Shown: positions 1,000 through 1,910 of the stretch, piece by piece
How the letters are laid out: every line of letters begins with the position of its first letter
Position numbering within the stretch: position 1 is the first letter of the stretch
Origin: a virus
Length of the DNA stretch: 64,000 nt
IMG/VR virus record: IMGVR_UViG_3300036846_001176
Span: 29,048-93,047 of that record
Reading direction: 5' to 3' (one strand)
Position numbers and translations under genes: made by a program
The notes under the pieces: generated by a model
What the model saw: only the letters and a program-made list of their open reading frames with translations
What the model was told of the DNA's origin: nothing
Database searches by the model: none

Positions 1000-1910
1000 A
1001 TGCCGGCCGGGCCGTGCCTCGGCGTGCCTTGCCCTGCCTCGCCACGCCTGCCGTGCCTAGACGAGCCTTGCCCAGCCATGCCCTGCCTGCCGTGCCCCGC
1101 CGCGCCGAGCGTTGCCCTGCGCTGCCGTGCCGAGCCTGCCGTGCCGAGCCACGCGAGGCCCGGACGCGCCGTGCCTCGCCACGCCTGCCATGCCTCGACC
1201 TGCCGCGCGGAGCCATGCCGTGCCACGCGATGCCGAGCCTGCCGGGCCCTGCCTCGCGCGGCCGCGCCGCGCCATGTCGCGCCAAGCCATGCCGAGCCTG
1301 CCTTGCCCTGACATGCCCTGCCGAGCCGGGCCTGGACTTGCCACGCCTGCCAAGCCGCGCCTTGGCGTGACGCGCCCAGCCTTGCCATGCCCGCCGTGCC
1401 CAGCCATGCCGCGTCGTGCCGGGCCATGCGATGCCGCGCCTAGCCTGCCGTGCCAAGCCAGGCCGGGACACGCCCGACCACGACCTGCCATGCGCTGACA
1501 TGCCTGCCGCGCCGGGCCACGCCTCGCCACGCCGGAACGGGCCATGCCATGGCGCGCCATGCCTGCCCCGCCTTGCCGAGCCCTGCCGTGCCTAGCGGCG
1601 CCGAGCCCCGCCCCGCCTGGCCTGCCTTGCCGAGCCGTGCCACGCCGTGCGTTGCCGAGCCATGACCTGCCAAGCCTCGCCTGCCGTGACGGGACTTGCC
1701 TTGACCTGCCACGCCTCGCCACGCCTGCCGAGCCGTGCCACGCCATGCCCTGACGAGCCGTGCGTTGCCATGCCTGCCGAGCCACGCCGAGACGTGCCTT
1801 GGCTTGTCTCGCCATGACGCGCCTCGTCGTGCCTGCCAAGCCATGCCCTGCCAGGCCTTACCGCGACTGGGGAGGCCATGCCGTGCCACGCCTGCCAAGG
1901 TGCACCTGCC
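1000..1910 (-). ncRNA. GGC-NN pentamer guide array (VIPR-like), 17 units of 39-59 nt
   Basis: Plus strand parses as NN-GCC pentamers (variant triplets gac, gcg, gtc, ggc, acc, aac, ggg). 4-nt gcc-t-gcc delimiters at 1046, 1085, 1134, 1183, 1237, 1296, 1345, 1443, 1502, 1561, 1620, 1679, 1723, 1772, 1831, 1890 and variants at 1002, 1389; all spacings are 5n+4. Directly downstream of RAMP-like operon. Confidence 0.9.

What the first reader, a model, noticed from the sequence alone, without database searches (positions are those of the whole stretch)
1568..1619. Guide L spells PFDLVYADPPW, the amino-methyltransferase motif IV
Seen: NN = cc tt ga ct gt ta gc ga cc cc tg. Established: F-D-x-V/I-Y-A-D-P-P-W/Y is the catalytic motif of N6A/N4C methyltransferases such as MT-A70-like phage enzymes. 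Inference: targets a methyltransferase of a competing phage or a host R-M system; silencing a rival's MTase would expose it to restriction.
Basis: partly seen in the sequence, partly recalled or inferred. Interest (0 to 1): 0.82.

Follow-up and report, generated by a model that had tools for sequence, protein, structure and literature searches.

The report
Phage VIPR guide against MT-A70 methyltransferases
One guide in a soil phage's VIPR array (a CRISPR-like, RNA-guided gene-silencing system described in 2026) matches letter for letter the catalytic DPPW motif of a group of DNA methyltransferase genes carried on mobile islands of soil bacteria. This suggests, without any functional test, that the phage switches off a rival element's DNA-marking enzyme.

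Summary
Window 1568-1622 is block L of a 17-block array of NN-GCC pentamers (1002-1895). Its 11 dinucleotides are cc tt ga ct gt ta gc ga cc cc tg.

The array is the guide array of a VIPR system, known from three 2026 bioRxiv preprints. It sits next to a Cas7-like vipr gene (2421-3263, minus strand) and a coupled accessory gene.

I read block L by the published 1-nt-skip rule and scanned three collections:
- 3 exact matches in 596 Gb of genomes, where about 0.07 is expected by chance.
- 8 exact matches in metagenomes.
- No exact match in viral contigs or in the phage itself.

All 11 matches lie in frame at PF[DE]LVYADPPW, the first residues of the MT-A70 domain (PF05063). They fall in at least 5 gene lineages only 40-66% identical. 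In 6 of the 11 loci (3 of the lineages) a tyrosine integrase lies directly downstream. No canonical restriction partner was seen.

A sister phage (Vipr 66-70% identical) keeps the same guide at 21 of 22 bases, plus one more matching codon. 15 of the 17 blocks are not shared.

Silencing, and any exposure to restriction, are inferred. This is a new member of a known kind.

The scan has noted VIPR arrays before on other DNA. One was an archaeal provirus with methyltransferase-motif guides, whose broad reading partly fell on a later check.

The parts
1568..1622 (-). Block L: 11 GGC-NN repeats of the vrRNA (minus-strand sense). Read on the plus strand, the NN are cc tt ga ct gt ta gc ga cc cc tg. 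One repeat is degenerate (GCG at 1595-1597).
   Evidence: Exact 1-nt-skip matches to MT-A70 genes.
1564..1567 (-). 4-nt boundary unit (plus T-GCC, RNA sense GGC-A) between blocks K and L.
   Evidence: The target match stops exactly here.
1623..1626 (-). 4-nt boundary unit between blocks L and M.
   Evidence: The target match stops exactly here.
1002..1895 (-). Whole staggered vrRNA array: 17 blocks (A-Q) of 7-11 pentamers, separated by 4-nt units.
   Evidence: 76 of 80 viral loci with a Vipr homologue carry such an array on the vipr strand.
961..992 (-). G+C-rich hairpin (10-bp stem) at the 3' end of the array in RNA sense. It lies between the array and the convergent plus-strand gene that ends at 952.
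   Evidence: -31.2 kcal/mol, z -2.3. It has no U tract, so the terminator scan does not list it.
1915..2418 (-). Candidate vap accessory gene, 168 aa. Its ATG overlaps the vipr stop codon.
   Evidence: phrog_15946, function unknown.
2421..3263 (-). vipr: a 281-aa RAMP/Cas7-like protein with an invariant glycine-rich C-terminal loop.
   Evidence: 1923 homologues. Invariant columns. AlphaFold2 model. All 50 best Foldseek matches in the PDB are CRISPR RAMPs.

Best explanation
Block L is one guide of a phage VIPR system (Vipr RAMP protein, accessory gene, staggered GGC-NN array). The array is probably transcribed from the minus strand behind vipr and vap, then cut or delimited at the GGC-A units into guides of about 59 nt. 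By analogy with the SUSP1 cryo-EM work, one Vipr protomer binds each GGC and presents the adjacent NN. The 11 NN pair with codon positions 1 and 2 of eleven successive codons and skip each wobble base. The matching DNA is the coding strand of MT-A70 DNA methyltransferase genes at PF[DE]LVYADPPW, which holds the catalytic DPPW motif IV. The expected effect is a transcriptional roadblock on the methyltransferase. Where a tyrosine integrase is the next gene in the same direction, that gene would be blocked too. The target genes sit on small integrase-bearing islands and phage-like elements of soil Actinomycetota and an Acetobacteraceae genome. Shown here: the sequence anatomy, the RAMP fold, the linkage of vipr and array across homologues, the exact wobble-aligned matches, and the conservation of the guide in a sister phage. 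Inferred: expression, processing, binding, silencing and the benefit to the phage.
For: Array anatomy. The VIPR rules (GGY/NN repeats, 1-nt skip, wobble alignment, dsDNA target on either strand, staggered arrays) come from bioRxiv 10.64898/2026.04.26.720920 and .720927. The vipr model's 50 best PDB matches are all Cas7/Csm3/Cmr/Cas6 RAMPs. 76 of 80 Vipr-homologue loci carry arrays on the same strand. Exact hits number 3 in genomes against about 0.07 expected, and 8 in metagenomes. All 11 are in frame in PF05063 genes, and the match starts at profile position 1. The hit genes fall in at least 5 lineages whose MT-A70 domains are 40-66% identical outside the footprint. The match begins and ends exactly at the two boundary units. 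The sister phage (L033:5512-5571) has gg cc tt ga tt gt ta gc ga cc cc tg between the same boundary units. That is 21 of 22 bases, plus a Gly codon that also fits the targets' GPF. Only blocks L and K are shared between the two arrays. There is no self-target: the best own-genome match for L is 16 of 22, and the phage has no MT-A70 homologue. An integrase lies directly downstream and co-oriented in 6 of 11 loci, in 3 lineages.
Against: No RNA data: expression and the ends of the guides are unknown. The phage's host is unknown, so co-residence of phage and target is not shown. All exact targets come from MAGs or metagenome contigs. There is no exact hit in 2.9 million viral contigs. The 9-unit core is not enriched there: 2 hits against 2 and 0 for scrambled controls, although only the real hits lie in genes. 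Housekeeping RsmD-family genes (PF03602) match at 19-20 of 22 bases, above the published 80% cut-off, so that cut-off alone does not single out MT-A70. The guide has no 3' tail of the kind that caps the experimentally studied type II vrRNAs.
Confidence: 0.8

Rival explanations
1. Broader or different target. The guide acts on amino-methyltransferase motif IV in general, including the host's housekeeping 16S rRNA methyltransferase RsmD (PFDLV[FL]ADPPY). MT-A70 would then be only the best-scoring member of that set.
For: In 401 Actinomycetota genomes, 23 have a site with at most 3 mismatches, against 7 hits for the backwards-read control. This count includes one hit from the unpublished genome G091. 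Most of these sites read PFDLV[FL]ADPPY in frame. All six tested are PF03602, the RsmD family. At 86-91% NN match they pass the 80% criterion used in the VIPR preprints.
Against: All 11 exact matches are MT-A70 and none is RsmD. The two positions that separate the families, TA for Tyr and TG for Trp, are kept in the sister phage's guide. Silencing a non-essential rRNA methyltransferase has no obvious value for a phage.
Confidence: 0.08
2. The guide is real but idle. The array, or this block, is a relic, a decoy or is not expressed. The match would then record a past target rather than present function.
For: No RNA run holding the locus was listed. There is no exact hit among viral contigs. One repeat of block L is degenerate (CGC instead of GGC in RNA sense).
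Against: vipr and vap are intact and coupled. The guide is kept at 21 of 22 bases in a sister phage whose other guides have almost all changed, which points to purifying selection. The VIPR paper says internal degenerate repeats are common.
Confidence: 0.08
3. Chance. With 17 blocks read through a degenerate code, one string happens to look like a known motif.
For: The reading is degenerate (96 peptide-or-stop readings). Seven blocks have 11 units. A single exact hit in 596 Gb has a prior of about 0.07 per such block.
Against: There are eleven hits in at least 5 diverged lineages, all at one site and in one frame of one family. The match ends exactly at the block boundaries. The same string occurs in a second phage. 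Scrambled 9-unit controls hit no genes.
Confidence: 0.03

Closest known systems
Type II VIPR systems of Escherichia phage SUSP1 and a Pseudomonas fulva prophage (bioRxiv 10.64898/2026.04.26.720920 and .720927)
   Same: A phage-borne RAMP protein (Vipr) with a small accessory gene and RNAs made of GGY-NN pentamers. NN read the target by skipping one base in three. Natural targets are coding sequences of other mobile elements, with the skipped base on the wobble position.
   Different: Here no invariant 3' tail or pseudoknot follows each guide. Seventeen guides abut one another, separated only by a 4-nt GGC-A unit. Guides are 7-11 repeats rather than 9-16. The phage is a 104.6-kb, 66% G+C soil virus. 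The target is a DNA methyltransferase, a class not mentioned in the main text of any of the three preprints. Their supplementary target tables could not be read.
Staggered vrRNA arrays (fig. S18 legend of 10.64898/2026.04.26.720920)
   Same: The legend describes arrays in which successive vrRNAs are offset by a 1-nt overlap, so that the end of one marks the start of the next. The 4-nt unit seen here (a pentamer one base short) fits that description.
   Different: Only the legend could be read, not the figure, so identity of the architecture is inferred. The preprint says the ribozyme and single-vrRNA architectures were confirmed by sRNA-seq, and does not say so for staggered arrays.
SUSP1 vrRNA4 against the satellite excision recombinase (bioRxiv 10.64898/2026.10.15.759431)
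   Same: The guide footprint lies on codons of an enzyme's catalytic core and reads only codon-determining positions, so escape would need an amino-acid change in the active site.
   Different: That case has experimental support and the target is the recombinase itself. Here the footprint is in a methyltransferase. An integrase would be affected only indirectly, as the next gene downstream, and nothing has been tested.
Class 1 CRISPR Cas7 backbone filaments, and CRISPRi
   Same: The fold is the same: all 50 best PDB matches of the Vipr model are Cas7, Csm3, Cmr or Cas6 proteins. Both use one protomer per repeat of guide, with periodic base flipping.
   Different: There are no CRISPR repeats or spacers, no cas1/cas2 and no nuclease in the locus. 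Pairing is 2 in 5 guide bases to 2 in 3 target bases, instead of 5 in 6.

Membership tests
VIPR system | A vipr gene encoding a minimal RAMP (RRM core, glycine-rich loop, thumb) | tested here: met
   AlphaFold2 model of P0001: pLDDT 73 overall, above 85 in the core. Foldseek against the PDB: all 50 best matches are CRISPR RAMPs, probability up to 1.0, but TM only 0.33-0.49. The loop G258-x-G260-E-G-R-P...W274-G-x-F is invariant in 32 homologues. No sequence comparison with published Vipr proteins was possible, because none was found in the PDB copy.
VIPR system | RNA genes made of tandem GGY-NN pentamers, with GGY conserved and NN hypervariable | tested here: met
   Spacing statistics and the parse of 17 blocks. 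The same holds in 76 of 80 loci with Vipr homologues, on the vipr strand.
VIPR system | An accessory vap gene beside vipr | tested here: inconclusive
   A 168-aa gene overlaps the vipr stop codon. It hits phrog_15946 of unknown function and no Pfam family.
VIPR system | Natural targets found by the 1-nt-skip rule, with the skipped base on the codon wobble position | tested here: met
   For block L, 11 exact matches, all in frame with NN on codon positions 1+2.
VIPR system | No self-targeting at 80% NN match or more | tested here: met
   For block L, the best own-genome site is 16 of 22 bases (73%), no better than shuffled guides. There is no match with up to 3 mismatches in the window.
VIPR system | vrRNAs are expressed, processed and bound by Vipr, and binding represses transcription | not testable with these tools
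   No RNA run holding the locus was listed, so no read-level test could be made.
MT-A70 methyltransferases (the target family) | PF05063 domain above the curated cut-off, with the DPPW motif IV at its start | tested here: met
   L002, L003, L004 and L113 proteins score 69.5-105 bits against a cut-off of 23.9, aligned from profile position 1, where PF[DE]LVYADPPW lies. PADLOC lists them as type II methyltransferase models.
Restriction-modification operon (as the context of the target) | A cognate restriction endonuclease gene adjacent to the methyltransferase | tested here: not met
   No neighbour hit a restriction-enzyme model in Pfam or PADLOC in L002, L003, L004 or L008. One island (L113) has a PDDEXK_13 nuclease 2.7 kb upstream on the other strand.

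The most novel reading that the evidence does not exclude
Selection keeps this guide in order to shut down, at the catalytic DPPW codons, a methyltransferase-integrase operon of integrative islands living in the phage's soil hosts. During infection the island could then neither mark its new DNA as self nor excise. Block K is the only other block conserved in the sister phage. Together they would mean these arrays hold a small, stable core of guides aimed at catalytic motifs of widely shared enzymes, beside a fast-changing set of guides.
Probability: 0.35. Interest if true: 0.7.

Novelty: new member of a known kind. Interest (0 to 1): 0.55.

Why it matters
VIPR was described only in 2026. Its known natural targets are satellite recombinases, prophage regulators and other VIPR loci in enterobacteria and Pseudomonas. 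A guide aimed at the catalytic motif of a DNA methyltransferase in high-G+C soil bacteria would add epigenetic self-marking to what phages attack by RNA guidance. It also gives a concrete pair to test: an 11-repeat guide and a 33-bp site. Only 2 of 17 guides survive between two sister phages. That contrast offers a simple way to tell guides under long-term selection from fast-turnover ones.

Tried and rejected
1. Protein-coding reading of the array. Long ORFs run through it on both strands. They follow from the composition (few stop codons), they change frame at each 4-nt unit, and related phages annotate the stretch inconsistently. Rejected.
2. Tweety gp54-type repeats (PMC2884959). Those are 12-bp in-frame tetrapeptide repeats, a different thing.
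3. Early ideas of a TRAP-like RNA-binding platform, a terminase or pac site, or G-quadruplex DNA. Dropped once the VIPR papers and the RAMP fold fitted.
4. Targets of any of the 17 blocks in the phage's own genome at period 3. None exceeds shuffles for block L.
5. Other blocks of the array on the target loci L002-L012. None reaches 85%.
6. Exact block L pattern in viral contigs: 0 hits.
7. The guide itself in viral contigs: only the sister phage.
8. MT-A70 in the phage: none.
9. RNA evidence: no RNA holder was listed for the locus, and read laying was not used.
10. Host inference: not achieved. The DNA occurs in soil metagenome runs.
11. Supplementary tables of the October 2026 preprint: not held. 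An earlier scan note says methylases appear among its listed hits. This could not be checked.

Full report
**What is there.** The window lies in a single 104,559-bp virus record of 65.7% G+C. Between a plus-strand gene ending at 952 and a minus-strand operon lies about 900 nt of pentamers (1002-1895). On the plus strand these read NN-GCC. GCC-to-GCC spacings are 5 nt in 92 of 149 cases, 10 nt in 27 and 4 nt in 18. The eighteen 4-nt steps (GCC-T-GCC) bound 17 blocks of 7-11 pentamers, which explains the 44-59 nt super-periods found by Tandem Repeats Finder.

**What kind of thing it is.** Three 2026 bioRxiv preprints describe phage systems made of a minimal RAMP protein (Vipr), an accessory gene (vap) and vrRNAs of alternating GGY and NN. 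The NN pair with double-stranded DNA while every third target base is skipped. Natural targets are mostly coding sequences, with the skipped base on the wobble position. Some arrays are 'staggered', with a 1-nt overlap between successive vrRNAs.

The locus fits this description:
- The gene at 2421-3263 (minus strand, 281 aa) has 1923 homologues and no Pfam family.
- Its AlphaFold2 model has as its 50 best PDB matches only CRISPR RAMPs: type VII Cas7, Csm3, Cmr4/6, Cas7-11 and Cas6. Probabilities are high and TM-scores modest.
- A 168-aa gene overlaps its stop codon.
- Of 80 viral loci encoding Vipr homologues, 76 carry GGY-NN arrays on the vipr strand.

The functional strand here is therefore the minus strand (GGC-NN), read through from vipr and vap. 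It ends at a G+C-rich hairpin at 961-992.

**The test of block L.** The 1-nt-skip pattern has 22 specified bases.
- It has no match with up to 3 mismatches in the window, and none better than 16 of 22 in the phage genome.
- One-genome-per-species contigs (596 Gb) hold 3 exact matches, where about 0.07 is expected by chance.
- Metagenome contigs hold 8 exact matches.
- Viral contigs hold none.
- All 11 matches are in frame with NN on codon positions 1+2, at PF[DE]LVYADPPW followed by ENHY[PS]TM.
- The proteins are MT-A70 (PF05063, 69.5-105 bits), and the motif sits at profile position 1.
- They form at least five lineages whose domains are 40-66% identical outside the footprint.
- The match starts and stops exactly at the two 4-nt boundary units. 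Neither the constant unit nor the neighbouring blocks fit the flanking codons.

**Limits of the match.** The guide is narrow.
- MT-A70 genes of six cultured phages reach only 14-17 of 22 bases.
- Two viral contigs reach 21 and 20 of 22.
- A 9-unit core gives 2 viral hits against 2 and 0 for two scrambled controls. There is thus no enrichment among viruses, although only the real hits lie in genes.
- In 401 Actinomycetota genomes, 23 have a site with at most 3 mismatches, against 7 hits for the backwards-read control. One of the 23 is the unpublished genome G091. Only this count rests on it.
- Most of those sites are PFDLV[FL]ADPPY in RsmD-family rRNA methyltransferases, PF03602.
- They pass the 80% criterion of the preprints, so that criterion alone would not single out MT-A70.

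**Context of the targets.**
- In L002/L011, L004/L010/L012 and L006, a tyrosine integrase lies directly downstream in the same direction, with a 4-nt overlap in L002.
- The L004 island has about four genes and lies between host genes.
- The L002 island also holds a sigma-like gene, and a PD-(D/E)XK nuclease 2.7 kb upstream on the other strand.
- L003 lies beside a VapE-like primase. Its genome has two more copies at 1 mismatch each.
- No neighbour hit a restriction-enzyme model.
- These are therefore orphan-type methyltransferases on mobile elements, not classical R-M operons.

**Conservation.** The closest relative in IMG/VR is a 102,563-bp contig whose Vipr is 66-70% identical. Between the same boundary units it carries gg cc tt ga tt gt ta gc ga cc cc tg. 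That is 21 of 22 bases of block L. The one change keeps Leu possible (CT to TT). The extra first unit is a Gly codon that also fits the targets' GPF. Of the window's 17 blocks, only L and K (14 of 16) have a counterpart there. The other 15 do not. This is the best evidence that the NN string of block L is under selection.

**Mechanism.** The most likely course is as follows. The array is transcribed with vipr and vap. Guides are delimited at GGC-A. Eleven Vipr protomers hold the GGC triplets and present the NN. The complex opens the MT-A70 gene at motif IV and pairs with the coding strand. Transcription is then blocked, for the methyltransferase and probably for the integrase behind it. The pairing rule and filament model come from the preprints. 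For this locus, everything beyond the sequence matches is inference.

Three possible pay-offs remain open:
- The island cannot excise, by analogy with the SUSP1 satellite case.
- The methyltransferase has some regulatory role.

**Novelty.** The system, its code and the idea of guides on catalytic-core codons are all in print. Three things are new here: the target class, this staggered high-G+C instance, and the two-phage conservation. The main texts of the three preprints never mention methyltransferases. Their tables were not readable. The scan has met VIPR arrays before on other DNA, including an archaeal provirus with methyltransferase-motif guides whose broad reading partly fell on a later check. 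My claim is the narrow one: a single guide, one MT-A70 subclade.

Noticed in passing
L001:2500-2750 (NC_028889.1 about 37499-37754) and L116 (NC_028889.1 37830-38459): Cluster F mycobacteriophages carry the same staggered NN-GCC / T-GCC array. Examples are Florinda, Quico, Saal, Mattes and Zizzle; 27 Mycobacterium and 3 Gordonia phage records matched by blastn. In Florinda the array is annotated as a protein gene (FLORINDA_59). The next gene (FLORINDA_60, 'hypothetical protein') is a Vipr homologue (E 6.7e-38). Well-studied SEA-PHAGES phages thus seem to hold unannotated VIPR systems.
   Followed up: partly
window 1509-1563 and L033:5976-6020: Block K is the only other block with a counterpart in the sister phage (14 of 16 bases; it reads IVGTS[RS]GGI there). 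Blocks L and K keep the same relative order in both arrays.
   Followed up: partly
L049:1739-1778, L069:2525-2604, L054:3232-3276, L040:4997-5051: Among 464 guides parsed from 74 other Vipr loci, four more contain an amino-methyltransferase motif IV string: GIVT[KN]PPY, VIT[KN]PPW, ..[RS]PPW and ..[DE]PPW. With the sister-phage guide that makes five, against roughly 1.3 expected under uniform dinucleotides. This is suggestive only.
   Followed up: no
L013-L022 (Actinomycetota genomes): Housekeeping RsmD-family 16S rRNA methyltransferase genes match block L at 19-20 of 22 bases. That is above the 80% NN-match cut-off used in the VIPR preprints, a caution for target calling by that cut-off.
   Followed up: partly
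L113:8202-9155: The L002-type island holds a PDDEXK_13 / REase-ARP-like nuclease 2.7 kb upstream of the methyltransferase, on the opposite strand. The L004-type island has no such gene.
   Followed up: no
L007:930-1928: One metagenomic copy of the target methyltransferase loses similarity right after the DPPW motif and matches in pieces. It looks frameshifted, from either an assembly error or a decaying gene.
   Followed up: no
window 1838-1892 (block Q) against genome position about 31765 (window about 2718, inside vipr): Block Q has an 18 of 22 (82%) period-3 match in the phage's own genome. This is above all 100 shuffles for that block, and it appears to fall within the vipr gene.
   Followed up: no
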